From IMG/VR virus record IMGVR_UViG_3300043570_003617: a stretch of 64,000 nt of DNA. One strand, given 5' to 3'. Origin of the DNA: a virus. The stretch's first letter is position 1; every line of letters begins with the position of its first letter. Shown here piece after piece: positions 2,106 through 63,455 of the stretch. The translations under genes were made by a program, and so were the position numbers. The notes under the pieces were generated by a model. It was not told the origin of the DNA. It saw only the letters and a program-made list of their open reading frames with translations, and ran no database searches.

Positions 2106-2864
2106 TTAAAATTCTTTTTGTTCCGAACGATACTTATCATATCGATTAGCAATTTGTATCAAGAATTTATTTCTAACAATATCTTCATTATTAAATTCAA
2201 ATAAACAAAGGTCATTCATTCCATCAACCATTTTAATAAAGTCGTTATATCCTGAGTCTCTTTTTCTAACATCATATTGTGATGTATCTCCCATCATAAC
2301 TGCTCTAGAGTCATTACCTAAACGAGTAACCCATAACATTATTTGTTTAATAGAAGCGTTTTGACACTCATCTAATAACATTATACAATTATCATAAGTA
2401 GAACCTCTCATATAAGCTAACGGCTCAAATACAATCTCTTCTGTTGAGAATAGAAAGTCAACTGTTGTTTTTCCTATAATTTTACAAAATGTTGTATAAT
2501 AAGATTGTTTGTAAGGATGTAACTTATCTTCCATACTTCCTGGTAAAAAACCTAAGTTTTCTCCAGATTCTTGAATAGGTTTTGTAATAATAATTTTTTC
2601 AATTTTTTTGTCAGCTAAAAGTGCTAAAGCTGCGTAACAAGTAGTGTAAGTTTTTGATGTTCCTGCGGGACCGTGAACAACTGTTAATATGTTGTTTCTA
2701 ATACCTTTATACAATTCTTGTTGTTTCTCACTAAGATGTACATTTGATTTTTGAAATTCTTCTTTAGTTAGAGAATTTTTCTTTCTTAGATTCTTTTTGT
2801 ATTCAAAATCTTGAACACCTTCTTGAATTTGACCACTTACTTCGTTTTTATATTTACTCATCAA
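2106..2864 (-). CDS. phoH: PhoH-like ATPase
   Basis: Walker A VVHGPAGTSKTY and Walker B-like IMLLDECQN. Length and architecture are typical of phage PhoH. Confidence 0.85.
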   Translation of the reverse strand: MMSKYKNEVSGQIQEGVQDFEYKKNLRKKNSLTKEEFQKSNVHLSEKQQELYKGIRNNILTVVHGPAGTSKTYTTCYAALALLADKKIEKIIITKPIQESGENLGFLPGSMEDKLHPYKQSYYTTFCKIIGKTTVDFLFSTEEIVFEPLAYMRGSTYDNCIMLLDECQNASIKQIMLWVTRLGNDSRAVMMGDTSQYDVRKRDSGYNDFIKMVDGMNDLCLFEFNNEDIVRNKFLIQIANRYDKYRSEQKEF

Positions 2865-3187: not shown

Positions 3188-6100
3188 ATGTGGACATACA
3201 ATAGTACTTATAACAAATGGTCATCAACTGATGATAAACTTATTAAAAGTGATTTTGATTTCTTAAAACAAGAATTAAAAGCTACAAGATTTTATGCTAA
3301 ATCTCTTAGTGGTGCTACTTATTTACCTATTAACGGAACCGATGATGTTTATGATATATTGGGAAAATATCAACCAAGAAATTGGTATATTAGTGTAGCT
3401 GGTTCTCCTTATAGTATTACAACAATACCTTCACAACACGCTACTCCAATAGATATTGATACTTCTTATAACTACTATACTAAATATCTATCCGAATATG
3501 GATTAACACTTAAAAATCTATTTACTCCAAATAGATTGATAAAAGATTCAATGGGTAACTACAACTATGTTGATGTTGCTACAACTGATTTATTAGATCT
3601 TTCAATTAGTGATATAAATCTTACTATAGATGGTGTTAGATTAATTAATGGTCAAAAAGTTTTAGTTAAAAACCAAATAAGTAATATTACTTTACTAAAT
3701 ACAATTAATCCAAATACTTATTTCACAGGAAACTATATAATTATTCAAGATTTGGGAGGAACTGTTGAATATGAATATTATAATGAAGAAAATGGAATTT
3801 ATAAATATTCAAATGGGAGTTTAGTTAGAGATGTTGATTTAGATGATTATAAAAGATGTATAAGATATAGCGTTTCTGTTAAATTGGGAACTAATAATAA
3901 AGGTAAACAATTTCACTTATCTAGATTATTAGATGGTTATTATCCAACTACTTCATTAAATCAACCAATTGAATTTAAAGAAAAACACAATTGGATACTA
4001 AGAAATAGAGTTGATTATAATAATTTATTTGAAATAAACTACTATGATGTAATTAAACACGGAACTCAATCTTATTCATTTGATGCTGTTATATATAACA
4101 TACCAACTAGAACAATATCTGTTGGTGAGTTTGGTGTTATATTAAATACACAAGAAGGTAAATCTAATATTATACCAAATAAATATAAAGTTAATCTTAG
4201 AGGTATTTCTGAAACTACTAACTATTATTGGATATGTGGTGATGAAAATACAGTTTTAAAAGTTAGAAAACACGATTTTAATATTGAAAGAATATTGACT
4301 GAAAATGTTCCTTCTTTACAACCGCTTATTGTTAAAACAAATCTTAAATCAATATCATTTTTTAATGATTTAAGAGGTGTTGTTGTTGGTGAGTTGAATA
4401 CAATTTTATACACTAAAAATGGTGGATACAAATGGGAAAGAATTGAACTTGATGATTTTAACACATTTAATTATAACAAAGTTTTATACACTACAAATAG
4501 TAGTTTCTTTATTGCTGGAAATGTTGGTGTTTTAATTGAAATGGTTGAAACTATAGGTGGTTGGACTGCTTATAAAAGAAGAGTTTCTAGAAAAATTGAT
4601 GAGGACGATGAGTACCTATTAGTTGATAATATAAATGATCTGTATAAAACAACTATCTCTACTTGGGGATTGAGTTATTCATATAGCACACAATCTATTC
4701 CTACTGATAAAGAATTACTTTTCTTAGCGTGTAATAATAATATTATATCAGCTTATGATATAAATAATTCTTTTAGTGCAGTAGGCACTGATTTTATTTA
4801 TTTTGATTTTGGAGCTGACTATGGAGATATTAAAAATATAACAAGAAGAAAAGAAACAAATTATTTTTACTTTACTGGAACTGATAAAATAAGTGGTGAA
4901 GATGGTGTTTTTTCATTTAATATTAGTAGTTTTAATTATCTAGGAATTGGTAATTCTTATTCTAATACTACTATTTCCTCAATTCCTGCTACATCTGAGT
5001 ATTCTAATATTTATCCAAATGAAATTTTCGATTACAATGGAGATGAATTATTAATATGTGGTAATACTTCTTTATTGAAATTATCTGGATATAGTCCAAT
5101 TAATTTTACAACATTAGATTCGACATTTGAAGATAAGTTAAAATCTAAACTTTTAGTTTTAGATTATGATATAGCAAGTAAGTTAAATTTCTTCACAGAT
5201 GCTGGTGAATATAGATTACCAAACTCTTTGAATTTTAATAGTGATAATATTACTACAACTGGATCTTATATAGGATTCAAGCCTATTGAACACGCTCTTA
5301 CAACAACCAATACTGGTACTTATTCTGAGAAAAACTGGATAGAGTATTGGAGAGATAGAGAAAAAACTTTTGAATTTTATAATAATAATCCACTTAGTGA
5401 TTCTAGTAAAGTTTTAATATCTACAACATTCTCACATGTTTTTTACGGATCTTCTTTTAGTTTTGTCGGATCTAATATCACTGGTTCTGCTTCACAACTG
5501 GTTAAATTGGCACCTAAAATATTAGATAAAAATTCAAGTAGATATAATGGATATGGTTTGACAGCAATATCAGCACCTACATCAAATCATAATATTTTCT
5601 TATATGATTATTTAATGGTTGTTAGATTATTGTCAAGTACCTTCTCTGCTAATGTTGGTGATGTTATGAAACTTGAATCAGTGGTTGTTGATGGTGAGTT
5701 TGTTATTAACAAAATAAGAACATTCGGTAGTTATAAATACGCTTATATGTTTACTGATTTTAATCAAAATATAATAACTGACTTACAATCAACAACTCAT
5801 AGTGTAACTTTAACTAACTTAAATAAATATACAACATCTGATGAATTAAAATCTAGATTTAATCAACATCCAATATCAACTGGATATAAATTAGATACTG
5901 TTAATTATGTACCAACTAGTTCAACTAAATGGACTTGGGGAATGCCAAACATTTCTGGTAATATTTTTTCTACACTCGGTGTTGGTTTTAATTACACAGC
6001 TGTTGGTGGTAATTTACTTATAAATATAAATTGTTTATCAAATTCTGGAACTAATTATAGTTCAGACTTTGCTACTCTTCCAGTAAATACTTTATGGAAG

Positions 6101-22605: not shown

Positions 22606-24354
22606 ATGCTTATTAGTGAATTAGGAATTAGAGGATTCAAAAGTTATGGTAATAACGAACAAGTCTTAAAATTAAATACAGAAAAAGGAGAATTAATTCT
22701 TCTTGTTGGAAATAACGGAGCAGGTAAATCATCTTTGTTAGATTCCTTCGATTACACACTTTATGGTAAAGTTAGAGGTCGCAAAAAGAAATGGGCCACT
22801 TTATCAACACTTCCAAATAGAATTAATGGTGAACTACTTAATAGAATTAAATTTAATTCTTTAGGTACTGATGTTGAAATTAAACGAGGTATTTCACCTG
22901 GTGTCTTAGAACTTACCGAGAATGGAGTAGTCAACGAAAGAGCCGGTAAAGGTAATGTTGATGAAAAGATTGAAAAGTATATCGGTATGGATATCGAAAC
23001 TTTCAAATCTTTTATTTCTATGTCAATAAACGACTTCAAAAATTTTATTTCATTATCAAATGAAGAAAAACAACTTCTTTTAGATAAGTTATTCAACTTA
23101 GAAGTTATTAATATTTTAAATGGTATCTTAAAAGATATCGCTAAAAACAATAAAGTTAGAGCCGCTTCTTTTGATGCTGAAATTAGAACTTTAGATGATT
23201 CAATTTTATCTATTCAAAGGTCTATTGATAAAGCTATTGAAAGACAAAAAGAAGAAGCTAGATTAGCTTTAGAAAGAGAGAAAGAAGATATTCAAGCTGA
23301 GATTGATAGAATCACTGGTGAAATGAATTCTAAAAAAGATGATTATAAATCTTTAAGAGATAAAATTGATAAAATCAAAGAAAAAGAAACTGAACTAAAC
23401 AATGAATTGGATAATGAGAAAAAGCAATATATTAATACACAAAATGACATTAAAAATGTACAACGAGAAATTGACTTATATGATTCTGGTAAATGTCCCA
23501 CTTGTAGAACAGATTTTAATTCTGATCACTTTGTTGCGTTAAGAGATTCTTTTGTTGAAAAGAAATTAGGTTTTGAAAATATCAAACTTGAGATTGAGGC
23601 CAATATTACTAAAGTTAAAGAAAGACAAGTTAAATTAAAATCTTTATCTGAATCTACAACAACTGCTTTTAATGATTTAAGTTATTTATTAAAGAGTTAC
23701 AAATCAGATATTGATAAACTAGTTCAAAAGAAAGCTAGTCAAACTGTACCGGTTAATACAACTCCTTCTGTTAATATTCAAGAGTTTCAAAATACAATTG
23801 AAGAACTTGAAGATAAGAAAATAGTAAGTAAAGATAATATCACCGTATGTAAAGAAAAGGATCTTTACTACAAAGAGATGAATCGAATCTTTGGTGAAGA
23901 TGGTGTTAAGAAATCTATCATCTCTGGAATAATCAAACCAATAAATCACTTTATTGCTGAGAATATTAAAAAGATGAGTTTACCATTTGAAGTAAGATTA
24001 GATGAGACTTTTACTGCTGAGATTAAACAATTAGGTTCACCAATTGAACATGATTCTTTATCAACTGGTGAAACTAAAAAAGTTAATATTAGTATCTTAA
24101 TTGCTTACTTGAAATTGATTAGAACTAAGCGTCATATCAATATACTCTTCTTAGATGAGGTTTTCTCATCAATTGATATCGAAGGTATAGATTCTATTTT
24201 GGCTCTCTTAAAATCGTTTGCAAATGATTATAACATCAATATCTTTGTTGTCCATCATGCTATTTTGAACCAAGAGATGTTTGATAGAATATTGAAGATT
24301 AATAAAGAGGTTTTCTCTTCAATAGAAGAAGTTGATTTAAGTTATGGTGGTTAA
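22606..24354 (+). CDS. SbcC/Rad50-like recombination ATPase (T4 gp46-like)
   Basis: N-terminal Walker A GNNGAGKSSLLD, long coiled coil, CPTC zinc hook, C-terminal signature LSTGETKKV and D-loop LFLDEVFSSID. Same architecture as T4 gp46, which also has CPTC. Confidence 0.75.
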   Translation: MLISELGIRGFKSYGNNEQVLKLNTEKGELILLVGNNGAGKSSLLDSFDYTLYGKVRGRKKKWATLSTLPNRINGELLNRIKFNSLGTDVEIKRGISPGVLELTENGVVNERAGKGNVDEKIEKYIGMDIETFKSFISMSINDFKNFISLSNEEKQLLLDKLFNLEVINILNGILKDIAKNNKVRAASFDAEIRTLDDSILSIQRSIDKAIERQKEEARLALEREKEDIQAEIDRITGEMNSKKDDYKSLRDKIDKIKEKETELNNELDNEKKQYINTQNDIKNVQREIDLYDSGKCPTCRTDFNSDHFVALRDSFVEKKLGFENIKLEIEANITKVKERQVKLKSLSESTTTAFNDLSYLLKSYKSDIDKLVQKKASQTVPVNTTPSVNIQEFQNTIEELEDKKIVSKDNITVCKEKDLYYKEMNRIFGEDGVKKSIISGIIKPINHFIAENIKKMSLPFEVRLDETFTAEIKQLGSPIEHDSLSTGETKKVNISILIAYLKLIRTKRHINILFLDEVFSSIDIEGIDSILALLKSFANDYNINIFVVHHAILNQEMFDRILKINKEVFSSIEEVDLSYGG

Positions 24355-24381
24355 GAAGATTAAAAAATTATGAATATAAAA

Positions 24382-24410
24382 AAACCTCTGATAAATCAGA
24401 GGTTTTTCTT
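24382..24410. terminator. bidirectional rho-independent terminator between convergent genes
   Basis: Stem AAACCTCTGAT / ATCAGAGGTTT, with A-run upstream and T-run downstream. Confidence 0.75.
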
Positions 24411-24426
24411 TTAATATATTTATAGA

Positions 24427-25950
24427 TTAATTACAATCGTAACAACTAGTATTACCTCTTCCGTCACAATTTCCACATTCAACATTACCTCGACCGCGAC
24501 AATCAGAACATTCTATTTCTCCATTTCCATTACAATCTTCACAATTGTTATTTCCTCTACCATCACAATCTGGACATTCTATTTCATTTCCTTCTTCATC
24601 TTCAATGTTTCCAGATCCATCACAATTACTACATTCAATATCACCTGATCCTGAACAATCATTACAACTAATTTCACCTCCTCCTGAACACTCATCACAA
24701 TCAACTTCACCATTTCCATAACAATCACCACATTCAACTTCACCAGAACCACCACAAGTTTCACATGATGATGAATCACCACCACCTGTATCTTCTAATG
24801 TTAAATAATCTCCTTTTTGTTCACTACTTAATATCCCTCTACCTTCTTGAAAATACTTCAAAGTATCTAAGTAAGGATAGTTGCTATAATTTTTCTTGTC
24901 TAAATTTACAGTTAAATCTAAACTAACATTCGATCCATCTGGAGCATAAGCTTTATTATCATCACTACTATTGTTATAGTATTTAGAATACCAACCATTT
25001 TCTTTAGCATAATCTCTAAATAATTGAATATCTGAATCATTTATTGCATAGATTCTATCCATGAACTTTTTACCATCTGTTAAAGTCCAAAGTAAAGCTC
25101 TTCCTGTTATTTTATCTGTATCATCTTGTGATTTGAATATAACTAAACTAACTTGGTCAGGATTCTCTGTGTATATTTCTAACCAACTAGCTCTAGCGTT
25201 AGCCATACAAGAGTTTCCTAAAGTACCACTTCTTTGGTAATAGTTTTGATAGTTATACCAAAAGTATATTTTTTCTCCAGTTACTTCTTCAAAGAAAGAA
25301 AATTTATCATTCATTTTATCAATAGTCGCTTTGAATAGATTAACAAATGTTTCATAATCTTTATCTAAAATACCTTCAACACCAGCAGCTTTTAATAAAG
25401 CTCTTGATGCTCTACCAACTTTAACCTCTTGTCTATTCTTAGACCATATTTGATTGATTCTATCATCAGTATTTCTTAACTTCTCTACATTATAAACACC
25501 TTGACCATTTGGAAATTTAACCCAAGCATAAGTCTTACCTGATGTTTCTGATGTTACTTTAGCAACAACTTCACCTATCTCAGTTGAGTTTGGTGTGTGA
25601 ACACTTCCTTCAGGTGTATATCCTAACTTATCAAATAACTCTTGATTAGATTCTGAGTGTTTCAACCAACCACCACCTGATCCTATAAATCTAACAGTTT
25701 CTTTAGCATCGCCAAGTATTTCTTGAGCTTTTCTATCTGGAGTAAATGAAACAATATCATTCTTACTTAAATCTATATCAAAATAATTTGTTTGTGTAGT
25801 AATGTCTTTATTTTCAGTGTCTAATAAAGCTTTAGAAATTGGGTGGTCTATTTTAGCGAGTGCTTTTCTAAATTTATCAGAGAAAACCACATCAGATTCT
25901 AGTATTAATTCCAATGATTCATTAATGAAGTCTGAATATCTTTTTAACAT
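24427..25950 (-). CDS. CTS-like N-terminus (MLKRYSDFINE) protein with a conserved paralog domain and a C-terminal array of ~11 CxxCxGxG zinc-finger-like repeats
   Basis: The central ~250 aa are homologous to ORF 1126..2073. The C-terminus reads CETCGGSGEVECGDCYGNGEVDCDECSGGGE..., DnaJ-type Cys-rich repeats. Confidence 0.75.
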   Translation of the reverse strand: MLKRYSDFINESLELILESDVVFSDKFRKALAKIDHPISKALLDTENKDITTQTNYFDIDLSKNDIVSFTPDRKAQEILGDAKETVRFIGSGGGWLKHSESNQELFDKLGYTPEGSVHTPNSTEIGEVVAKVTSETSGKTYAWVKFPNGQGVYNVEKLRNTDDRINQIWSKNRQEVKVGRASRALLKAAGVEGILDKDYETFVNLFKATIDKMNDKFSFFEEVTGEKIYFWYNYQNYYQRSGTLGNSCMANARASWLEIYTENPDQVSLVIFKSQDDTDKITGRALLWTLTDGKKFMDRIYAINDSDIQLFRDYAKENGWYSKYYNNSSDDNKAYAPDGSNVSLDLTVNLDKKNYSNYPYLDTLKYFQEGRGILSSEQKGDYLTLEDTGGGDSSSCETCGGSGEVECGDCYGNGEVDCDECSGGGEISCNDCSGSGDIECSNCDGSGNIEDEEGNEIECPDCDGRGNNNCEDCNGNGEIECSDCRGRGNVECGNCDGRGNTSCYDCN

Positions 25951-26018: not shown

Positions 26019-26831
26019 ATGAAGAAAATTAAATTATTAATTTTAATGTGTTTATTTTCGGTAGTCGGATATTCACAGGTTATTGACACTGCCTACCTAA
26101 ATGTAATATCTTGGAATATTCAAAACTTTGGAAGATCAAAATCTGAATCTGATAGTGTTATGAAATATATCTGTTCAAAAGTTAAATTACATGATATCGT
26201 AGTTATTCAAGAAGTTTCTACATCGGAGTTTGGAGCACAAGCAGTAGCAAAATTAGATGACCTTTTAGATAGAACAGGAACATCTTGGGATTATGTAGTA
26301 TCTGATCCAACAACTGGTCCAGGTTCTGAAAGATACGCTTACTTATATAAGAAATCGAGAGTTAAATTAAAAGAATCAGGTTTAGAAAAAACCTTACAAG
26401 ACAAGATAAATAGAGAACCATTTAGGGCAGTATTTGTATTTAAGAAAAATGAATATTATTTATTTAATTTACACTTAGTACCAACTGATAAAAACCCAGC
26501 TGTTGAAGCGGCTCATTTAGCTTCTTTGGGCGAAACATATAAAGGTAAAAGAATCATATTTATGGGTGACTTAAATTTATCACAAGCTAGTCCGGGATTT
26601 GATGGTGTTAAGAAATGGGCTAAACCAACTTTAATAGGAAAGAAAACATCATTAAAGATGAAAGAAGGAGAAGCTGGAGAAAAACTGAATATGGAATATG
26701 ACAACTTTTTCATATCATCTAATATAATTTTAAAGAGTAGTGATGTTATAAACTTCTTTTCAGAGTTCAAAGAATTGAAAACTGCAAGAAAAGTATCGGA
26801 TCATTGTCCTATTTATTGTATAATAAAATAA
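26019..26831 (+). CDS. secreted endonuclease/exonuclease/phosphatase (EEP, DNase I-like) family protein
   Basis: Signal peptide MKKIKLLILMCLFSVVGYSQ. Catalytic blocks IVVIQEV and SDHCPIY (SDHxP). Confidence 0.7.
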   Translation: MKKIKLLILMCLFSVVGYSQVIDTAYLNVISWNIQNFGRSKSESDSVMKYICSKVKLHDIVVIQEVSTSEFGAQAVAKLDDLLDRTGTSWDYVVSDPTTGPGSERYAYLYKKSRVKLKESGLEKTLQDKINREPFRAVFVFKKNEYYLFNLHLVPTDKNPAVEAAHLASLGETYKGKRIIFMGDLNLSQASPGFDGVKKWAKPTLIGKKTSLKMKEGEAGEKLNMEYDNFFISSNIILKSSDVINFFSEFKELKTARKVSDHCPIYCIIK

Positions 26832-26844
26832 TTTAAATAAATAT

Positions 26845-27036
26845 ATGTTAATTGTAAAAGTAGAAGGAAAACAAACTTTAGAAAAAGCTTTGAAAGTTCT
26901 TAAAAGAAAATGGGACAAAACTAAAGCTATGAAAGAGTTGAGAGAAAGAAAAGAATTTACTAAAAGATCTGTTAAAAGAAGAGCTGAGATAACAAGAGCA
27001 TCTTATGTTCAGAAGAAGTATAGAAGTAATGATTAA
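26845..27036 (+). CDS. rpsU: ribosomal protein bS21 homolog
   Basis: MLIVKVEGKQTLEKALKVLKRKWDKTKAMKELRERKEFTKRSVKRR aligns by eye with bacterial S21 ([47 protein letters not shown]). 63 aa, basic. Confidence 0.75.
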   Translation: MLIVKVEGKQTLEKALKVLKRKWDKTKAMKELRERKEFTKRSVKRRAEITRASYVQKKYRSND

Positions 27037-27328
27037 TAAGTTACTTAGTTTATTTCCTAATCAAAATCATAAAACATATGATCTGGGAAAATTACAAAAT
27101 TCTGGTTTTATAAAACCGATAGAAGATTTATCGGGTTGTCCTAATTGTAAAAGTAAAAATATAACCTGGAAATTCTTTATACCAATTGGTGGTTCTAAGC
27201 CAACTATTCCATCACAAAATATTTGTAATGATTGTGGGTATAAAGATGAAAAAGGTCAGTTTGAAATGACAAACAAATCAATTTTAAGAGAAAAAAAAAT
27301 TAATAAAATATTAGATGAGCTTCAATAA
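27029..27328 (+). CDS. small zinc-ribbon protein (start at internal ATG overlapping the bS21 stop)
   Basis: CPNC...CNDC pairs. The track ORF 27005 starts inside bS21; the in-frame ATG at 27029 gives an ATGA-type overlap. Confidence 0.5.
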   Translation: MINKLLSLFPNQNHKTYDLGKLQNSGFIKPIEDLSGCPNCKSKNITWKFFIPIGGSKPTIPSQNICNDCGYKDEKGQFEMTNKSILREKKINKILDELQ

Positions 27329-27530
27329 AAGATATATCAAAAGAGAAAATTTAGAGTATGCTGCTAGTCAAGGATTAGACTATCTAATTAGTTATATAAC
27401 AAAACCTGATGCTCTTATCATAGAATCAGATGGTATTTCAAAACAAGTTTGTGATATTGTTGGTGAAACAAAAAACAAGACTGAAATGAAAGAAAAATTG
27501 AAAAATATAGGATTCTATGAATTTAAGTAA
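27315..27530 (+). CDS. hypothetical small protein
   Basis: 71-aa ORF overlapping its neighbours by 14 nt at each end, suggesting operon-like coupling. Confidence 0.45.
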   Translation: MSFNKRYIKRENLEYAASQGLDYLISYITKPDALIIESDGISKQVCDIVGETKNKTEMKEKLKNIGFYEFK

Positions 27531-28230
27531 AAACTATTACTCAATTCTTGGTGTTAATAATATATCTGATGAAAAATCAATAAAAAAAGCTTATTATAAA
27601 TTATCATTTACTCACCACCCGGATAAGGGTGGAGACCCTGTTACTTTTGGTGAAATGACAGAAGCATATGATGTTCTCTGTGGTGAACAAAGAAAAGATT
27701 ATGATATGAAGAGTAAGTTTGGTAATAGTTACAACGAATATTTTGAATTATTTGATATTAATGTAGAGTTTGATTATAATAAAGAAAAGTCAAACTATGA
27801 AAAGTTCAAAAAGAATGAAGTTTTAGATATCTATTTAGATATAGATGAATCATTTGATGGTACTTTAGAATACGAAAGATGGGTTAAATGTAAAACTTGT
27901 GATGGTACAGGTAAAGACCTTTCTGCTAAAATTTTTATTAAAGATAATGATGGTAATATTCTAAGAACATTTGATGCTGATGACGGATGTGACTTTTGTG
28001 AAGGTTCTGGTAAAGACTATAAAGGTGATTCTTGTAACTTCTGTAATGGTAAAGGTAAAATAGGTTTAACACCTTGTAAAAAATGTAATGGTGAAAAACG
28101 AATTTTAGGTAAACAAAAACTATCAGGTATTAAATTAACCGGTGATGAAACCAAAATGGAGTCAATGGGTAATTGTTCTAAAGATGTAGCAGGAATGGTT
28201 GGTTATCTTTTATTAAAAAAGAAAGTTTAA
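27517..28230 (+). CDS. DnaJ-like protein (J domain plus CxxCxGxG zinc-finger repeats)
   Basis: YYSILGV...AYYKLSFTHHPDKGG (HPD motif). Four C-x-x-C-x-G-x-G-type units: CKTCDGTGK, CDFCEGSGK, CNFCNGKGK, CKKCNGEKR. Confidence 0.75.
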   Translation: MNLSKNYYSILGVNNISDEKSIKKAYYKLSFTHHPDKGGDPVTFGEMTEAYDVLCGEQRKDYDMKSKFGNSYNEYFELFDINVEFDYNKEKSNYEKFKKNEVLDIYLDIDESFDGTLEYERWVKCKTCDGTGKDLSAKIFIKDNDGNILRTFDADDGCDFCEGSGKDYKGDSCNFCNGKGKIGLTPCKKCNGEKRILGKQKLSGIKLTGDETKMESMGNCSKDVAGMVGYLLLKKKV

Positions 28231-37330: not shown

Positions 37331-38065
37331 ATGGATAAGAAAAAGGTATTGATTTTTACTGGAGCAGGAGTTTCAGCTGAAAGTGGCGTTGCTACTTTTA
37401 GAACTGGTGATGATGGTCTTTGGTATAATCATAAAGTAGAAGATGTTGCCACACCTAGTGGGTGGCGTAGAGATAGGGAAAAAGTTCTTAATTTCTACAA
37501 TATGCGACGTGCTCAAATGAAAGATGTTGAGCCAAATTTAGCGCATAAAATAATTGCTGAATTAGAAAGTGATTATGATGTTACTGTTGTAACTCAGAAT
37601 GTTGATGATTTACACGAAAGATCTGGTTCAACTAATGTTATTCACTTACATGGTGAGTTAACAAAGGCTAGAGGTTGTATGTATGACCACAAAACATCAC
37701 CATTAGATACAGTTATTGATGTGGGATATAATCCAATTAATATTGGAGATAAGTGCCCAACAACTGGTTCTCAACTAAGACCTCACATTGTTTGGTTTGG
37801 TGAAGATTTGGATCCACAATTTGTTGATATGGCTACAGTTGCTGCTAAAGAATGTGATGTTTGTATTGTTGTTGGAACTTCGATGAAAGTTTCTCCTGCT
37901 AATACAATTCCATTTTTGACTAAAGAAAGTGCTAAGATTTACTATGTGGATTTATCAGACCTTGATTTCTATGTACCAGAATATAGAACTGATTTATTTC
38001 ATCATTATCAAGAATTGGCATCAACTGGTATGGAAAAAGTTAAAAATAATTTAAAAAATATTTAA
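37331..38065 (+). CDS. Sir2-family NAD-dependent deacetylase/ADP-ribosyltransferase (sirtuin)
   Basis: Core motifs GAGVSAESGVATFR, TQNVDDLHERSG, IHLHGEL, IVWFGEDL and VVGTSMKV are all present. Confidence 0.75.
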   Translation: MDKKKVLIFTGAGVSAESGVATFRTGDDGLWYNHKVEDVATPSGWRRDREKVLNFYNMRRAQMKDVEPNLAHKIIAELESDYDVTVVTQNVDDLHERSGSTNVIHLHGELTKARGCMYDHKTSPLDTVIDVGYNPINIGDKCPTTGSQLRPHIVWFGEDLDPQFVDMATVAAKECDVCIVVGTSMKVSPANTIPFLTKESAKIYYVDLSDLDFYVPEYRTDLFHHYQELASTGMEKVKNNLKNI

Positions 38066-48100: not shown

Positions 48101-50023
48101 ATGACAAACATTTTAAATTTTATGGCAAATTATTGGTGGATTGCAGCAATTCTCCTTTGTGTAGTAATGTATAAATTCATTCTACGAGTATTTTTCGGAC
48201 TAGTTATTGTTCCAGAGGACAAGATTGGTTTAGTAACAAAAAAGTTCGTTCTTTTTGGAGAACACAAAGAACTTACAGGTGATCGTATTATCGCGGTAAA
48301 TGGTGAAGCTGGTTTTCAAGCAAAGATGCTTTCACCGGGTCTTCACTGGTGGATGTGGCCTTGGCAGTACAACATCGATATGCAAGGATTTGTTGTTATT
48401 CCAGAAGGACATATTGGATTGGTATCAGCAAAAGATGGTTTAGTACCAAAGACAGGACGTATCTTAGGTCGTAGAGTAGAATGTGAAAACTTCCAAGACT
48501 CTGTTACCTTCTTAACTAACGGTGGTCAAAAAGGTCGTCAATCATCTTTTATCACGAATGGTGTTTATAAAATCAACACACACTTATTCGAAGTTTCTAT
48601 TGTTAAACAAGCTACTATTCAAGAAAATATGGTGGGTGTAATCACATCATTAGATGGTGATCCATTAGAGAATGGTCAAATCGCTGGTAAAAATGTTGAA
48701 GGACACAATAACTTCCAAGACTTTGATAAATTCTTAGAGTTAGGTGGTAATCGTGGTTTACAACAACAAACTATCTTAGCTGGTACTTATAACTTAAATC
48801 CTTGGGCTGTTCAAGTAGAAGAAGTACAAATGACTGAGATTCCAATTGGTCACGTTGGAGTTGTTATCTCTTTCGTTGGTGAAGATGGTGTTGACGTAAC
48901 TGGTGTTAACTTCAAACACGGTAACTTAGTTGGTAAAGGACAAAAAGGTGTTTGGGCTGAACCGTTCGGACCTGGTAAATACCCAATCAACAAGTACACT
49001 AATAAGATTGAGTTAGTACCAACAACTAACCTTGTATTGAATTGGGCTAACGCTCGTACTGAGTCTCACAACTTAGATAAAGGACTTAATACAATCACTG
49101 TTCGTTCTAAAGATGGTTTCCCATTCAACTTAGATGTATCACAGATTATCCACATTCCAATGACAGAAGCACCTAAAGTGATTGCTCGATTTGGTAATAT
49201 GAATAACTTAGTATCTCAAGTTTTAGAACCAACAATTGGTAACTACTTCCGTAACTCGGCTCAAGACTCTGATGTAATCGCCTTCTTAACTACTCGTAAA
49301 GAACGTCAAGATTCAGCGAAACAACACATTTCTAAAGTATTAGATGAGTATAATGTTCACGCTGTTGATACTTTGATTGGTGATATCGTTCCACCACAAG
49401 AGTTGATGAAAACGTTAACTGATCGTAAGATTGCTCAAGAACAAGAAGTGACTTTTGAAACTCAAAAGAAAGCCGCTATCTCTCGTCAAACTTTTGAAAA
49501 AGAAACTGCCATCGCTGATATGCAGGGTGAGGTTGTAAAAGCTGACCAAGGTGTACAAATTGCTGAACGTCACGCTGATGCTTCTGTTAAGAAAGCTAAG
49601 GGTGATGCTGAATCTGTTAAAATTGCGGCTGAGGCAAGTGCTGAATCAACAAAGTTGAAAGCAGAAGCAGATGCTACAAGAACATCATTGATTGGTAACG
49701 CTGAGGCTGAGGCTATTCTTTCTAAGGGTAAATCTACAGCTGAGGCTTATAGATTGGCTGTTGACGCTATGGGTAAAGAAAACTTTACTACTTACAAAGT
49801 AACTGAAGAAATCGGCAGAAACAATGTGAAAATCATGCCAGACTTGTTAATCAACGGTGGTGGACAAAGTGGGAACGGTGCAATAGATGGATTATTGGGA
49901 GTTCAAATCTTAAACATGATGGGTAACCAAATTGGTAAGAGTATGAACGACACAACAGTGAAGTCAGTAACTACTGATGTACCTGTTGAAGATCTTTCTG
50001 TCCAAAAGAAAGACAAGAAGTAA
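48101..50023 (+). CDS. SPFH / band-7 (flotillin-like) membrane protein
   Basis: N-terminal transmembrane segment, then an SPFH domain, then an Ala/Glu-rich coiled coil (AEASAESTKLKAEADATRTSLIGNAEAEAIL) as in flotillin/YqiK. Confidence 0.75.
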   Translation: MTNILNFMANYWWIAAILLCVVMYKFILRVFFGLVIVPEDKIGLVTKKFVLFGEHKELTGDRIIAVNGEAGFQAKMLSPGLHWWMWPWQYNIDMQGFVVIPEGHIGLVSAKDGLVPKTGRILGRRVECENFQDSVTFLTNGGQKGRQSSFITNGVYKINTHLFEVSIVKQATIQENMVGVITSLDGDPLENGQIAGKNVEGHNNFQDFDKFLELGGNRGLQQQTILAGTYNLNPWAVQVEEVQMTEIPIGHVGVVISFVGEDGVDVTGVNFKHGNLVGKGQKGVWAEPFGPGKYPINKYTNKIELVPTTNLVLNWANARTESHNLDKGLNTITVRSKDGFPFNLDVSQIIHIPMTEAPKVIARFGNMNNLVSQVLEPTIGNYFRNSAQDSDVIAFLTTRKERQDSAKQHISKVLDEYNVHAVDTLIGDIVPPQELMKTLTDRKIAQEQEVTFETQKKAAISRQTFEKETAIADMQGEVVKADQGVQIAERHADASVKKAKGDAESVKIAAEASAESTKLKAEADATRTSLIGNAEAEAILSKGKSTAEAYRLAVDAMGKENFTTYKVTEEIGRNNVKIMPDLLINGGGQSGNGAIDGLLGVQILNMMGNQIGKSMNDTTVKSVTTDVPVEDLSVQKKDKK

Positions 50024-51701: not shown

Positions 51702-52799
51702 TTAACCAACCGTTAAGAAGATCTTCCTTGACATGCGGTCTACTGAAAGAACTTTCACTTTGATATCTTGTCCCGGTGAGAACTTTTTACCAAGTTTCTC
51801 CATTTCTGAAGTGTGAATAAGACCAACTGTCTCATCATCAAGGTTTACTAAAGTACCAAAAGCTTTGGTGTCTTTAACGGTACCGTCAATGATTTGACCG
51901 TTTTTAATGTTATCCCAAAGAGTTTCACGAAGAATTTGAGTCAAGATAATTTTATCTTTAATCACTTCTTTGATGTAGAAATCAATTTCGAATCCTGGTG
52001 AGATTGAAGTTAATTTCTCAGCCCAATCTGGGTTAACATTTGCTTTGTGAATCATACCTGTAAGACATTCGTTGAATTCAACAAACACACCAAATGGTGT
52101 AGTTCCTGTAACGTGTCCTTGGTAAACTTGTCCGTGTTGAAGTTCTTTAACTGCTTCTGGGATAAGTGTTTGTAAATACTTACGTCTTGAAACGATGTAT
52201 GTACCTTCATTTTGAGAGTAAGATTCAATCATAACATTGAATGTCTGACCAACAATTGAATTTTGATTGTGTAGTTTATTGATACCAGCTAATGTGTTTG
52301 GCATAAATCCTGGAAGTTTAACACCACCGTGAGTTAATTCAACATCATACCCTGCTGGGTTAAGACTCTTAACATTTACCATAACTGGTTCACCTTCTTT
52401 AAGAGCTTTAAGATTAGCGTGAGCTCTTGATTCATAAAGAGAAGATACACTTCCTTTAATCATAAAAACATCTTGGTTAACATCTGTGATTAAAACATCA
52501 ATCATATCACCCATGTTGATATCTTTAAGATATTTAGTTTCACTGATTTTGTCATCTATGCGGATATCATCTTTATATCCTCTTACTCCAAAAACATATT
52601 GGTCAGCTGATTTACCAACATATTTTGCTGATACTACTTGTCCATTCTCTGGGATGCAAACTTCATCAAGATTGTATAATTTCAACATTTCTTGGTATTC
52701 CTTTGAATTTTTGTTTCTGCCACCTTTTGCAGAAAACTCTACATCATTAAAGATGTCGGCTAGATCTTCATTTCCGATTGTTTGTTTGTTCATATTCAT
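51702..52799 (-). CDS. ribosomal protein S1-like protein with multiple S1 RNA-binding domains
   Basis: At least three canonical S1 units: GEPVMVNVKSLNPAGYDVELTHGGVKLPGFMP, GQVYQGHVTGTTPFGVFVEFNECLTGMIHKANV and GQIIDGTVKDTKAFGTLVNLDDETVGLIHTSEM. Confidence 0.7.
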   Translation of the reverse strand: MNMNKQTIGNEDLADIFNDVEFSAKGGRNKNSKEYQEMLKLYNLDEVCIPENGQVVSAKYVGKSADQYVFGVRGYKDDIRIDDKISETKYLKDINMGDMIDVLITDVNQDVFMIKGSVSSLYESRAHANLKALKEGEPVMVNVKSLNPAGYDVELTHGGVKLPGFMPNTLAGINKLHNQNSIVGQTFNVMIESYSQNEGTYIVSRRKYLQTLIPEAVKELQHGQVYQGHVTGTTPFGVFVEFNECLTGMIHKANVNPDWAEKLTSISPGFEIDFYIKEVIKDKIILTQILRETLWDNIKNGQIIDGTVKDTKAFGTLVNLDDETVGLIHTSEMEKLGKKFSPGQDIKVKVLSVDRMSRKIFLTVG

Positions 52800-61625: not shown

Positions 61626-63455
61626 ATGATTGAACAACTAAAAGAACAAATTATTAAAGCGAATGACGCTTATAGATTGGGACAACCAATCATATCTGAT
61701 ACTAAGTATGACCAATTAGTTGAAGAATTATCTTTATTATCACCAGATGATGAATTACTTACAAAAGTAGGTGTTGAAATCACTGATGAAACTCGTAAAG
61801 GTAAACTACCTATTGAAATGGCTTCGATGAATAAAATCAAATCAATGAATGATGTTGATGATTGGTCTCGTCTTAAAGGTATTTCTAAAAAAGAAATGGT
61901 TATCATCACACCTAAATATGATGGACTTTCATTATGTGTTAATGAAATGACATCTGAAGCTTGGACTCGTGGTGATGGTGAGTTTGGTCAAAAATCAAGT
62001 GAACATTACTCTTTAATTCAAAATCACTTAAACTTAGAAAAAGATTCATTTAGATTTACTTATGGTGAAGTAATGATTCCTAAGCAAGTTTTTATTGACA
62101 AATTCTCTACTGACTTTGCAAATCCTCGTAACTTAGTTGCCGGTTTGTTAAACTCTAAAACTGTAAGTGAGTCTTTAAAAGATTGTCAGTATATTAAATA
62201 CGGTGCCGTTTGTAATACAATATTCGACACTAAACAAGAAGTTCTTAACGAACTTAATAAAGGTCAAAAAATTAAAGTACAATATTATATATGTGAACTT
62301 GGTGATTTATCAGAAGGTTTACTTATTGAATTATTCCATAAATTTTCAACTGAATTTGAAATTGATGGTTTAATCATCGAACTTAATGATTTAAGTTTAC
62401 AAAATAAATTAGGTCGCGAGACTTCATCAAACAATCCTGTTTGGGCTCGCGCATTCAAACACCCAAGTTTTGAACAATCTGCTGAAACAGATGTTATCGG
62501 AATTTCTTGGAATATCTCTAAACAAGGTTTATTAAAACCAATTCTACACATCACTCCTGTTAAATTAGATGGTGTTACAGTGTCTAACGTGACTGGTAAC
62601 AACGCCAGATTCGTAAAAGACTTAGGACTTGGTGTAGGAGCTAAAGTTGTCGTAAAACGCTCTGGAATGGTTATTCCAATCATTGCTGATGTTATCACTC
62701 CAGTTGAATTTATTCAACCTACAATCGAAGGTGTTGAAGTAGATTGGAATGAAGCAGGTATCGAGTTAATTACTTTAACTGAAACTGACGACCAAAAGTT
62801 AAAAAAGATTGTTGCTTTCTTTGAAATATTAGAATCTGACAATGTGTCAGAAGGAGTTATCACTCAATTATGGGAAGCTGGTTACAAAACAATCAAAGAT
62901 ATTCTTACTCTTAAAACTTCTGACTTAGAGAAGATTGACCGTTTTGGTAAGAGAAAAGCTGATATTGTTTATAAGTCTATTCAAAAGTCTGTTAGTAATG
63001 TCCAGTTGTCTAAACTACAACATGCTACAGGTATCTTCAAAGGATTAGGTTCTAAGAAATTAGTTCTTTTAGAAGACTTCAAAACTAAACCTAGTGTTGA
63101 CCAAGTAATGTCGATTGAAGGATTTGCTGAAGTATCTGCTAAATCATACATTGACTCATATGACATATTCTTTGATTTTATTAAAGATTTACCTGTCACA
63201 ATTGTCGAAAAAGTTCAAGCTGTTAAAGTTGGCACAGACCTTGAGGGTAAATCATTTGTCTTTACCGGAGTTCGTAGACCAGATTTAGAATCTGATATTG
63301 AATCTCGTGGTGGAAAAATTGGTTCTGGTGTATCAAAAACAACAACTTACCTTGTAATGAAGTCGATTGGTAGTGGTTCTTCTAAAGAGAAGAAAGCCAT
63401 TGACTTGGGTGTTGAAGTGATTACAGTAGAACAATTAGAAAAATTATTAAACTAA
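61626..63455 (+). CDS. ligA: NAD-dependent DNA ligase (LigA)
   Basis: Adenylation motif KYDGLS (KxDG), OB/HhH architecture, and a C-terminal BRCT-like segment GKSFVFTGVRRPDLESDIESRGGKIGSGVSKTTTYLV. 609 aa. Confidence 0.85.
   Translation: MIEQLKEQIIKANDAYRLGQPIISDTKYDQLVEELSLLSPDDELLTKVGVEITDETRKGKLPIEMASMNKIKSMNDVDDWSRLKGISKKEMVIITPKYDGLSLCVNEMTSEAWTRGDGEFGQKSSEHYSLIQNHLNLEKDSFRFTYGEVMIPKQVFIDKFSTDFANPRNLVAGLLNSKTVSESLKDCQYIKYGAVCNTIFDTKQEVLNELNKGQKIKVQYYICELGDLSEGLLIELFHKFSTEFEIDGLIIELNDLSLQNKLGRETSSNNPVWARAFKHPSFEQSAETDVIGISWNISKQGLLKPILHITPVKLDGVTVSNVTGNNARFVKDLGLGVGAKVVVKRSGMVIPIIADVITPVEFIQPTIEGVEVDWNEAGIELITLTETDDQKLKKIVAFFEILESDNVSEGVITQLWEAGYKTIKDILTLKTSDLEKIDRFGKRKADIVYKSIQKSVSNVQLSKLQHATGIFKGLGSKKLVLLEDFKTKPSVDQVMSIEGFAEVSAKSYIDSYDIFFDFIKDLPVTIVEKVQAVKVGTDLEGKSFVFTGVRRPDLESDIESRGGKIGSGVSKTTTYLVMKSIGSGSSKEKKAIDLGVEVITVEQLEKLLN

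What the first reader, a model, noticed from the sequence alone, without database searches (positions are those of the whole stretch)
26845..27036. Phage-encoded ribosomal protein bS21
A 63-aa basic protein aligns well by eye with bacterial S21 (VKV...ALK.LKRK...E.RER.EF.K.S.KRR). S21 is the ribosomal protein most often found in phage genomes, notably in pelagiphages and Flavobacteriia phages. In Bacteroidota, bS21 gates access to the anti-Shine-Dalgarno sequence, so a phage copy could reprogram initiation. The gene sits in a tightly overlapping operon: EEP nuclease, bS21, Zn-ribbon protein, small ORF, DnaJ-like.
Basis: partly seen in the sequence, partly recalled or inferred. Interest (0 to 1): 0.75.

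Follow-up and report, generated by a model that had tools for sequence, protein, structure and literature searches.

The report
Huge-phage copy of ribosomal protein bS21
A very large bacteriophage that probably infects Bacteroidota carries its own conserved copy of the small ribosomal protein bS21; this is real but already well documented for this kind of phage, so the finding is correct and fairly ordinary.

Summary
Window 26845-27036(+) encodes a 63-aa basic protein. It matches Pfam Ribosomal_S21 above the curated cut-off (39 vs 27 bits). It aligns without gaps over residues 1-57 with bS21 of the Flavobacterium johnsoniae ribosome (7JIL, E 1e-10). dN/dS against relatives is 0.09-0.14.

The window is collinear with two published huge-phage genomes, LR756502.1 (642 kb) and LR745206.1 (635 kb). 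Both carry bS21 at the same position.

The protein is of the Bacteroidota type. Tyr54, which stacks on 16S A1534 to hide the anti-Shine-Dalgarno sequence, is invariant in 75/75 close homologues. Only 2 of 58 window genes have a Shine-Dalgarno core. The phage copy therefore most likely slots into host 30S subunits and keeps them SD-blind, while its altered N-terminal helix and C-terminal tail may favour phage mRNAs.

Al-Shayeb 2020, Chen 2022 and Mizuno 2019 already describe all of this. Three details are modestly new:
- The phage gene lacks the strong SD that autoregulates every cellular Bacteroidota rpsU recovered (15/15, against 0/35 phage copies).
- It sits in a conserved bS21 / small ORF / DnaJ module, not next to capsid genes.
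- Pro41 of the family's KPS motif is replaced.

Ribosome incorporation is untested. Interest 0.3.

The parts
26845..27036 (+). Phage-encoded bS21 (rpsU homologue), 63 aa, Bacteroidota type (Tyr54, Val55; no N-terminal extension; Pro41 of the family KPS motif replaced by Arg)
   Evidence: Pfam PF01165 39 bits, gathering score 27. Gapless alignment 1-57 with 7jil_z, E 1e-10. dN/dS 0.09-0.14. Y54 in 75/75 and W23 in 74/75 close homologues.
26815..26844 (+). Translation-initiation region of the bS21 gene: A/T-only, no Shine-Dalgarno sequence
   Evidence: Sequence ATTGTATAATAAAATAATTTAAATAAATAT. Duplex energy with the anti-SD is +2.2 kcal/mol, against -11.4 for 15/15 cellular Bacteroidota rpsU loci. 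34 of 35 distinct phage copies from IMG/VR are also SD-less.
27315..27530 (+). 71-aa ORF (MSFNKRYIK...), a short homologue of the 144-151-aa ORF that lies between bS21 and DnaJ in the published huge phages; function unknown
   Evidence: BLASTP E 1e-5 to the N-terminus of the 144-aa ORF of LR745206.1. Same position in L011 and L013. No Pfam or PHROG hit.
27517..28230 (+). DnaJ-like co-chaperone: J domain with HPD motif plus CxxCxGxG zinc-finger region, truncated relative to bacterial DnaJ. It is the conserved downstream partner of bS21.
   Evidence: Pfam DnaJ E 5.9e-15 and DnaJ_CXXCXGXG E 2.2e-5. 68% identical to the LR756502.1 counterpart. Lies next to or near bS21 in L001-L011 and L013.
27005..27328 (+). 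Zn-ribbon ORF (107 aa from ATG 27005, or 99 aa from ATG 27029) overlapping the end of bS21; a lineage-specific insertion
   Evidence: Weak zinc-ribbon Pfam hits. Present in L004-L010, absent in L001-L003, L011 and L013. Gene callers differ on the start codon.
26019..26831 (+). EEP-family nuclease/phosphatase with a signal-peptide-like N-terminus, 13 nt upstream of bS21; present only in the nearest relatives
   Evidence: Pfam Exo_endo_phos E 5.8e-11. Weak hit to MnuA membrane nuclease. Present in L007-L009, absent in L001, L004 and L011.
22606..24354 (+). SbcC/Rad50-like ATPase, the conserved upstream synteny anchor of the bS21 module
   Evidence: Pfam SMC_N, AAA_23 and SbcC_Walker_B. Same position in L001-L006, L008, L011 and L013.

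Best explanation
This is a bS21 (rpsU) homologue carried by a huge phage of the lineage that holds the 635-642 kb genomes LR745206.1 and LR756502.1. Those phages are predicted to infect Bacteroidota.

Shown here:
- It is a full-length bS21 under purifying selection.
- It is of the Bacteroidota type, with Tyr54 and Val55 at the two positions that contact the 3' tail of 16S rRNA in F. johnsoniae.
- It sits in a phage genome whose genes lack Shine-Dalgarno sequences.
- Its own gene lacks the strong SD found on cellular rpsU.

Inferred:
- During infection the protein binds the 30S platform in place of, or in addition to, host bS21. bS21 is a late-assembling, exchangeable protein.
- It keeps the anti-SD sequestered, so ribosomes stay tuned to SD-less, A-rich leaders like the phage's own.
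- Its clade-specific changes may bias mRNA choice or make the phage copy resistant to host control. These changes are Trp23, Val18-Leu19, Lys27 and Ala28 in the N-terminal helix that faces the mRNA, loss of Pro41, and the conserved tail QKKYRSND.
- Because the gene has no SD, its synthesis is not throttled by the host's bS21 feedback loop. Filling ribosomes with the phage copy should also turn down translation of host rpsU.

My confidence that this is a phage-encoded bS21 homologue is about 0.95. My confidence in the ribosome-substitution mechanism is about 0.6.
For: Family identity: Pfam PF01165 above threshold, PHROG 'ribosomal protein S21', and the best solved-structure match is bS21 of 7JIL over residues 1-57 with no gaps, E 1e-10. 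7JIL is the F. johnsoniae ribosome (PMC9723584).

Bacteroidota signature: Jha et al. name Tyr54 (stacks on A1534) and Ile55 as the bS21 contacts (PMC7797042). The window has Y54 and V55. Y54 is 75/75 in close homologues and invariant across phage and cellular Bacteroidota sequences in A1.

Phage origin:
- The window matches only huge-phage records and is collinear with LR756502.1 positions 303-349 kb.
- Those phages hold bS21 at the syntenic site.
- All 10 metagenomic contexts share the phage gene order.
- No species-representative bacterial genome holds a copy above 59% identity.

Selection: dN/dS 0.09-0.14, in line with pN/pS of about 0.10 for viral ribosomal proteins (PMC6375957).

Host-like initiation: 2/58 window genes have an SD core and upstream G is 2-9%.

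No SD on the phage gene: +2.2 kcal/mol, against -11.4 for 15/15 cellular loci. 0/35 IMG/VR phage copies have a strong SD.

Precedent: pelagiphage bS21 enters E. coli 70S ribosomes (PMC6375957). The substitution model has been proposed for Bacteroidetes phages (PMC9723584, PMC7162821).
Against: There is no experimental evidence for this protein. Incorporation into ribosomes, timing of expression and any effect on mRNA choice are all untested.

TIGR00030 scores just under its cut-off.

The KPS motif at the junction of the two helices is present in all 24 cellular sequences compared. Here it reads KRS, which could change how the protein sits on 16S rRNA.

AlphaFold gives one straight helix rather than the two-helix shape, and the fold search is not significant.

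In E. coli, ribosomes carrying the pelagiphage bS21 translated poorly in vitro (PMC6375957). Substitution therefore need not be beneficial in a simple way.

The host is inferred only from similarity and from SD usage. The search for cellular relatives needed exact 8-residue words, so it is biased.
Confidence: 0.65

Rival explanations
1. The phage bS21 acts off the ribosome, as a small basic RNA-binding protein. It could bind phage or host mRNAs, act as a decoy for a host factor that targets bS21, or join another ribonucleoprotein.
For: bS21 homologues have extra-ribosomal partners in other bacteria, for example the OLE RNP (PMC12054373, listed). Pro41 of the conserved KPS motif is lost, and the tail QKKYRSND is clade-specific and strongly conserved. 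The gene is linked to a J-domain protein rather than to translation genes.
Against: The residues that matter for the ribosomal site (Tyr54 and a hydrophobic residue at 55) are invariant. The alignment with ribosomal bS21 is full-length and gapless. The only tested phage bS21 does enter ribosomes (PMC6375957).
Confidence: 0.1
2. The phage copy unlocks the anti-SD. It displaces host bS21 but fails to sequester the 16S 3' tail, switching ribosomes to SD-dependent initiation. This is a strong reading of the first reader's 'reprogram initiation'.
For: Ribosomes without bS21 gain SD recognition in F. johnsoniae (PMC9976891, PMC13000457). The phage protein differs from host bS21 at several positions.
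Against: Tyr54, the residue that redirects the tail, is invariant. Only 2 of 58 genes in the window have an SD core, and upstream regions are G-depleted, so the phage would gain nothing from SD recognition.
Confidence: 0.05
3. The window is a bacterial (host) contig and this is simply the cell's own rpsU.
For: The protein is a normal-length bS21 with Bacteroidota features. The window holds no virion hallmark gene that the PHROG or Pfam scans could name.
Against: DNA similarity is only to phage records, with long collinearity to a curated 642 kb phage. There is no SD on the gene, unlike 15/15 cellular Bacteroidota rpsU loci. No GTDB species genome has a copy above 59% identity. Giant ORFs, PhoH, Sir2 and methyltransferases at 95% coding density and 28.9% GC are typical of jumbo phages.
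Confidence: 0.03
4. It is a recently captured host gene with no function for the phage (a neutral passenger).
For: Phages often carry host-derived genes. The flanking EEP and Zn-ribbon genes come and go between relatives.
Against: The gene keeps its position across lineages whose copies are only 46-55% identical. It is under purifying selection with saturated synonymous change: dS 0.6-1.9, dN/dS about 0.1. In a short NJ tree without bootstrap support it forms a clade of its own, apart from cellular sequences.
Confidence: 0.05

Closest known systems
bS21 of huge 'Mahaphage' genomes (LR756502.1, LR745206.1, LR756501.1, LR756504.1; Al-Shayeb et al. 2020, PMC7162821)
   Same: Same kind of element, with a predicted Bacteroidetes host. 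bS21 lies at the syntenic position between an SbcC-like ATPase and a DnaJ-like gene in LR756502.1 and LR745206.1. Tyr54 is kept. The paper already proposes substitution into host ribosomes.
   Different: Only 46-55% protein identity. The window's clade has its own signature: Trp23 and the tail QKKYRSND. It has no N-terminal extension of the sort the paper highlights. LR756501.1 keeps an SD upstream of its copy, which this one does not.
bS21 of freshwater Bacteroidetes phages up to 331 kb (Chen et al. 2022, PMC9723584)
   Same: Phage bS21 closest to Flavobacteriia. The aromatic residue at position 54 is conserved. Divergence is concentrated in the N-terminal helix, and the C-terminal tail is clade-specific.
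   Different: In that study the gene sits on the reverse strand inside the capsid, terminase and portal module and is expressed late. Here it lies in a replication/repair-type neighbourhood, linked to a J-domain co-chaperone, with no structural gene recognised nearby. Its expression timing is unknown.
Cellular bS21 of Flavobacterium johnsoniae and other Bacteroidia (7JIL; Jha 2021 PMC7797042; McNutt 2023 PMC9976891)
   Same: Same length and a gapless alignment. Tyr54 and a hydrophobic residue at 55 that hold the 16S 3' tail are present, and the tail is less basic than in other phyla.
   Different: 44-59% identity, depending on the cellular sequence and the alignment span. Pro5 and Pro41 are replaced, and Phe23 becomes Trp. 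The gene lacks the extended SD that drives autoregulation of cellular rpsU.
Pelagibacter phage HTVC008M bS21 (Mizuno et al. 2019, PMC6375957)
   Same: A phage-encoded bS21 under strong purifying selection. It is the only phage bS21 shown experimentally to enter 70S ribosomes.
   Different: It has a proteobacterial-type host that uses SD sequences, and it was tested in E. coli. It bears no relation to the Bacteroidota anti-SD sequestration mechanism.

Membership tests
Ribosomal protein bS21 (Pfam PF01165 / TIGR00030) | Profile match above the curated threshold | tested here: met
   PF01165 39 bits against a gathering score of 27, E 6.6e-10, covering profile positions 2-53 of 55. The stricter TIGR00030 equivalog gives 27.0 bits against 28.95, narrowly below.
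Ribosomal protein bS21 (Pfam PF01165 / TIGR00030) | Small (about 55-70 aa), highly basic protein, collinear end to end with bS21 chains of solved ribosomes | tested here: met
   63 aa, pI 10.6. Residues 1-57 align to 1-57 of 7jil_z (E 1e-10) and 9i5v_9 (E 3.6e-9). All 20 PDB matches are bS21.
Ribosomal protein bS21 (Pfam PF01165 / TIGR00030) | Conserved K-P-S/T motif at the junction of the two helices | tested here: not met
   The window has K40-R41-S42. The close clade has K or R at position 41 in 73/75. All 24 cellular sequences compared have P.
Ribosomal protein bS21 (Pfam PF01165 / TIGR00030) | Two-helix fold as seen on the 30S subunit | tested here: inconclusive
   AlphaFold2 gives mean pLDDT 80 but one continuous helix over residues 12-60. 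Foldseek against the PDB returns only two matches, both chain U of ribosome entries, at E 2.9 and 8.2. The free protein is not expected to fold on its own.
Ribosomal protein bS21 (Pfam PF01165 / TIGR00030) | Physical component of the 30S subunit | not testable with these tools
   This needs mass spectrometry or cryo-EM of ribosomes from infected or expressing cells.
Bacteroidota-type bS21 (anti-SD sequestering) | Signature Tyr54 (stacks on A1534) and a hydrophobic residue 55 | tested here: met
   Y54 and V55 in the window. Y54 in 75/75, and I or V at position 55 in 75/75. The feature is defined in PMC7797042.
Bacteroidota-type bS21 (anti-SD sequestering) | C-terminal part much less basic than in other phyla | tested here: met
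   The net charge of the tail after Tyr54 is +2 (VQKKYRSND), against 0 for Lutimonas. The tails of Nitrospirota and Deltaproteobacteria are long Lys/Arg-rich stretches. The window's tail is slightly more basic than the cellular Bacteroidota tails.
Bacteroidota-type bS21 (anti-SD sequestering) | Gene preceded by a strong or extended SD (autoregulatory element of rpsU in Flavobacteriia and others) | tested here: not met
   The window upstream region gives +2.2 kcal/mol and contains only two G (the TG of ATTGTA), with no SD-like purine run. 15/15 cellular Bacteroidota loci have AAAGGAGGT at -11.4.
Phage-encoded bS21 (Mizuno 2019; Al-Shayeb 2020; Chen 2022) | Encoded on a phage genome | tested here: met
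   Collinear with the curated phage genomes LR756502.1 and LR745206.1, with syntenic bS21 in both. No virion gene was identified inside the 64-kb window itself.
Phage-encoded bS21 (Mizuno 2019; Al-Shayeb 2020; Chen 2022) | Under purifying selection | tested here: met
   dN/dS 0.09-0.14 in three pairwise comparisons.
Phage-encoded bS21 (Mizuno 2019; Al-Shayeb 2020; Chen 2022) | Placed within the capsid/terminase/portal module (the Chen 2022 clades) | tested here: not met
   The neighbours are an SbcC-like ATPase, a Cys-rich protein, an EEP nuclease, DnaJ, a glycosyltransferase and giant ORFs. This is a different genomic context.
Phage-encoded bS21 (Mizuno 2019; Al-Shayeb 2020; Chen 2022) | N-terminal basic/aromatic extension (reported for many huge-phage copies) | tested here: not met
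   Met1 aligns with Met1 of cellular bS21, and the ORF starts at the first ATG after an upstream stop.

The most novel reading that the evidence does not exclude
The phage copy is built to break the host's bS21 feedback loop. Host rpsU is translated mainly by bS21-free ribosomes through its extended SD. An SD-less phage gene would be made regardless of ribosome status. It would fill every free bS21 site and so shut off host rpsU translation, and the ribosome pool would be converted progressively to the phage variant.

The phage may use this together with the linked J-domain co-chaperone and the bS1-like protein encoded 25 kb away as a coordinated kit for remodelling the 30S platform and mRNA-exit region. 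I found no paper in the searched library that states the SD-loss point.
Probability: 0.3. Interest if true: 0.55.

Novelty: new member of a known kind. Interest (0 to 1): 0.3.

Why it matters
Phage-encoded bS21 is the commonest case of a virus carrying a ribosome part. Bacteroidota are the one group in which bS21 is known to decide whether ribosomes can see Shine-Dalgarno sequences. This locus adds a well-conserved and widespread clade: 252 homologues, on contigs up to 520 kb.

It comes with a clean contrast that is easy to test. Host genes carry the autoregulatory SD and phage genes do not. F. johnsoniae genetics (bS21 depletion strains, rpsU reporters) already exist, so a simple expression experiment could show whether a phage bS21 enters ribosomes, keeps the anti-SD hidden and silences host rpsU.

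It does not change current thinking. It gives one more candidate, possibly a convenient one, for testing an existing hypothesis.

Tried and rejected
1. An alignment-based scan of bacterial genomes failed because no stretch was conserved enough. The single-protein scan worked but depends on exact 8-residue words, so the 'closest cellular relative' (Lutimonas and other Flavobacteriaceae, 57-59%) is indicative only.

2. Structure prediction and fold search were uninformative. The model is one straight helix, and the Foldseek hits to ribosomal chain U are not significant.

3. PHROG and Pfam scans of 20 other window proteins found no capsid, terminase, portal or tail gene. Phage identity therefore rests on collinearity with published phage genomes, not on hallmark genes inside the window.

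4. The sigma-70 promoter scan was no better than shuffles (34 sites against 28.3 ± 6.2). No Bacteroidota -7 motif (TAnnTTTG) lies between 25900 and 27100 on the + strand. The promoter of the bS21 transcription unit was therefore not located.

5. No tRNA or Rfam family was found in the window.

6. I considered and rejected the readings that this is a cellular rpsU, a chance ORF, a neutral passenger gene or an anti-SD-unlocking variant (see the rival explanations).

Full report
**Observation.** The ORF at 26845-27036(+) exists as described and encodes 63 residues. It has 22 Lys+Arg and a pI of 10.6. Pfam Ribosomal_S21 (PF01165) matches at 39 bits, above the gathering score of 27, with E 6.6e-10. 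The match covers profile positions 2-53 of 55. PHROG 21469, 'ribosomal protein S21', matches at E 1.9e-4. The stricter NCBIfam equivalog TIGR00030 scores 27.0 against a cut-off of 28.95, narrowly below.

Against solved structures, all 20 matches are bS21 chains. The best is 7jil_z at E 1e-10, aligning residues 1-57 with 1-57 and no gaps. The second is 9i5v_9 at E 3.6e-9. E. coli-type bS21 chains score only E 0.1-0.7. 7JIL is the Flavobacterium johnsoniae ribosome (PMC9723584).

**A real, constrained gene.** A search of 5.8 billion proteins returned 252 homologues. The 120 listed are 73-95% identical, 62-63 aa long with two exceptions, and all carry PF01165. NG86 estimates against relatives give dS 0.63-1.89, dN 0.09-0.17 and dN/dS 0.09-0.14. 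This agrees with the pN/pS of about 0.10 reported for viral ribosomal-protein genes (PMC6375957).

**The element is a huge phage.**
- Megablast of the whole window against 50,697 phage records hits only LR756502.1 (642 kb) and LR745206.1 (635 kb), at 73-78% identity.
- The matching pieces are collinear. Window positions ~2.2-52.4 kb correspond to LR756502.1 positions ~303-349 kb on the same strand.
- The 634-735 kb records (LR745206.1, LR756501-LR756504) match the more-than-634-kb genomes of Al-Shayeb et al. 2020. That paper places them in the 'Mahaphage' clade and predicts that they replicate in Bacteroidetes (PMC7162821).
- tblastn finds bS21 in five such records at 46-55% identity.
- In LR756502.1 and LR745206.1 the gene order around bS21 is the same as in the window. 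It runs SbcC-like ATPase, (Cys-rich ~510-aa protein on the other strand), bS21, a 144-151-aa ORF beginning MGF[GN]KRYI, a DnaJ-like protein, then a giant protein on the other strand.
- The same order recurs in all ten metagenomic contexts fetched, on contigs up to 520 kb.
- The window is 28.9% GC and 95% coding.
- It encodes PhoH, Sir2, an NAD-dependent ligase, a Toprim protein, methyltransferases, collagen-like and LamG proteins, and ORFs of 1,067-2,425 aa.
- No virion hallmark gene was recognised inside the 64 kb, so the phage assignment rests on the collinearity.
- No tRNA gene and no Rfam family were found.

**Which kind of bS21.** Jha et al. showed that in F. johnsoniae the 3' tail of 16S rRNA, including the anti-SD, is folded onto the platform by bS21, bS18 and bS6. 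Of bS21, they name Tyr54 (stacking on A1534) and Ile55 as contacts. Tyr54 is a phylum signature, and the C-terminal part is far less basic than elsewhere (PMC7797042).

The window protein has Tyr54 and Val55. Among 75 close 63-aa homologues Tyr54 is invariant and position 55 is always Ile or Val. Tyr54 is also invariant across the phage and cellular Bacteroidota sequences aligned. The sequences from Nitrospirota, Nitrospinota and Deltaproteobacteria lack it and have long Lys/Arg tails.

The nearest cellular copies found were from Flavobacteriaceae (Lutimonas and MAGs) at 57-59% over residues 1-56, then Chitinophaga-like MAGs at 50%. That scan needs exact 8-residue words, so it is biased. A neighbour-joining tree (short protein, no support values) puts the window in a tight clade with its metagenomic homologues. 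This clade is sister to the LR756502.1 copy and nests among Bacteroidota-type sequences.

The clade differs from cellular Bacteroidota bS21 at several positions. Phe23 becomes Trp (74/75), Arg/Lys18-Phe/Tyr19 becomes Val-Leu, and Gly27 becomes Lys. Pro5 and Pro41 are lost, so the family's KPS motif reads K-K/R-S. The conserved tail is QKKYRSND. There is no N-terminal extension, unlike many huge-phage copies described by Al-Shayeb et al..

**Initiation signals.** Of 58 predicted genes in the window, 2 have a GGAG, GAGG or AGGA core at -18 to -4. G is 2-9% at nearly every upstream position from -20 to -1 (12% at -5), and A is 29-72%. That is Bacteroidota-style, SD-independent initiation, and it fits the predicted host.

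The bS21 gene itself is preceded by ATTGTATAATAAAATAATTTAAATAAATAT, which gives a duplex energy with the anti-SD of +2.2 kcal/mol. In contrast, all 15 cellular Bacteroidota rpsU loci recovered carry AAAGGAGGT at -11.4 kcal/mol. This is the element that Jha et al., McNutt et al. and the 2026 structure paper show to drive autoregulation. bS21-free ribosomes translate rpsU through a 13-bp SD-ASD helix that excludes bS21 (PMC7797042, PMC9976891, PMC13000457).

The relatives L001, L004, L011 and L014 are also SD-less. L013 (LR745206.1) is intermediate at -4.7. The 735-kb phage LR756501.1 is an exception with AAGGAGGA at -11.8. Among 35 distinct phage bS21 proteins fetched from IMG/VR, none has a strong SD (≤ -8) and 34 are above -4.5.

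I found no mention of this contrast in Chen et al. 2022 or in the two 2026 F. johnsoniae papers, which do not discuss phages. McNutt et al. speculate only that host autoregulation could be a counter-defence.

**Neighbourhood.** EEP and bS21 are separated by 13 nt. bS21 and the Zn-ribbon ORF overlap by 32 nt (start at 27005) or 8 nt (start at 27029). The next two junctions overlap by 14 nt each.

The EEP gene has a signal-peptide-like N-terminus and is present only in the nearest relatives (L007-L009). The Zn-ribbon ORF is also lineage-specific. The conserved core is bS21, the small ORF and DnaJ. The 71-aa ORF matches the N-terminus of the 144-aa ORF of LR745206.1 (E 1e-5). The DnaJ-like protein has an HPD motif and is 68% identical to that of LR756502.1.

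A stem-loop with a T run follows the SbcC-like gene at 24380-24407. No convincing terminator lies between bS21 and the end of DnaJ. Promoter scans were uninformative.

**Mechanism.** The following is shown: a full-length bS21 of the Bacteroidota type, under selection, on a phage whose genes lack SD sequences, with no SD on its own gene.

The following is inferred:
- The protein occupies the bS21 site on host 30S subunits and keeps the anti-SD hidden.
- Its changed N-terminal helix lies over the mRNA path (Chen et al.). That helix and the C-terminal tail could bias initiation towards phage mRNAs or stabilise bS1 and the exit channel. bS21ΔC ribosomes translate SD-less mRNAs poorly (PMC13000457).
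- Being SD-less, the gene escapes the host's feedback loop, and its product should depress host rpsU translation.

A reading in which the phage copy frees the anti-SD is unlikely, because Tyr54 is invariant and the phage has no SD sequences to exploit.

**Comparison and novelty.** Phage bS21 in general is described by Mizuno 2019. bS21 in these very huge phages, and the substitution idea, are in Al-Shayeb 2020. Tyr54 conservation in Bacteroidetes phages, with divergence in the N-terminal helix, is in Chen 2022. All are published. This locus is therefore a new member of a known kind.

It differs from the Chen 2022 clades in context, because it is not in the capsid module. It differs from many huge-phage copies in lacking an N-terminal extension. 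The SD contrast, the bS21/DnaJ linkage and the Pro41 loss are small additions.

Interest is 0.3. The identification is sound and the locus is a usable test case, but a specialist would not be surprised by it.

Noticed in passing
window 51702-52799 (-): A 364-aa protein with several S1 RNA-binding domains. It aligns over about 340 residues with NCBIfam '30S ribosomal protein S1' models (E 1e-27 to 1e-35, 95-121 bits), far below their cut-offs of 368-624. This makes it a bS1-like second candidate initiation protein in the same phage. Al-Shayeb 2020 noted that possible rpS1 genes occur in huge phages that lack SD sequences.
   Followed up: partly
window 24427-25950 (-): A 507-aa protein whose C-terminal ~110 residues are a run of CxxCxGxG-type repeats, like the DnaJ zinc finger (weak Anti-TRAP and BSD2 hits). 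It is conserved as a 510-aa ORF in LR756502.1 and sits beside the bS21-DnaJ module. Function unknown.
   Followed up: partly
L012 (LR756501.1, 735-kb phage) 4971-5000, upstream of its bS21: Unlike the window and the other phage copies examined, this phage keeps a strong SD (AAGGAGGA, -11.8 kcal/mol) in front of its bS21 gene. It may be a more recent capture, or a copy still under host-style autoregulation.
   Followed up: no
window 26019-26831 (+): The EEP nuclease upstream of bS21 starts with a signal-peptide-like sequence (MKKIKLLILMCLFSVVGYSQ) and weakly resembles MnuA membrane nucleases. It is present only in the nearest relatives, so it is probably an exported nuclease unrelated to bS21.
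   Followed up: partly
L061, L064, L071, L089, L099 and others (IMG/VR), about 10-25 nt upstream of their bS21 start: Many other phage bS21 genes have TATnTTTG-like sequences (for example GTATTTTTGTATTATTTAATAGGAT-ATG) just upstream of the start codon. These resemble the Bacteroidota -7 promoter element TAnnTTTG (consensus from my own knowledge, not checked against a paper here) and suggest very short leaders. The window's copy has no such motif.
   Followed up: no
window 37331-38065 (+), 2106-2864 (-), 61626-63455 (+), 48101-50023 (+): Other recognisable genes in the window are a Sir2-family protein (E 2e-46), PhoH (E 8e-54), an NAD-dependent DNA ligase with a BRCT domain, and a 640-aa SPFH/Band-7 protein. 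These are ordinary jumbo-phage cargo, recorded for completeness.
   Followed up: no
L024 (CAZMRD... contig labelled 'uncultured Bifidobacteriaceae' MAG): This contig carries a Bacteroidota-type bS21 (Tyr at the signature position) preceded by AAAGGAGGT. The contig is probably mis-binned.
   Followed up: no
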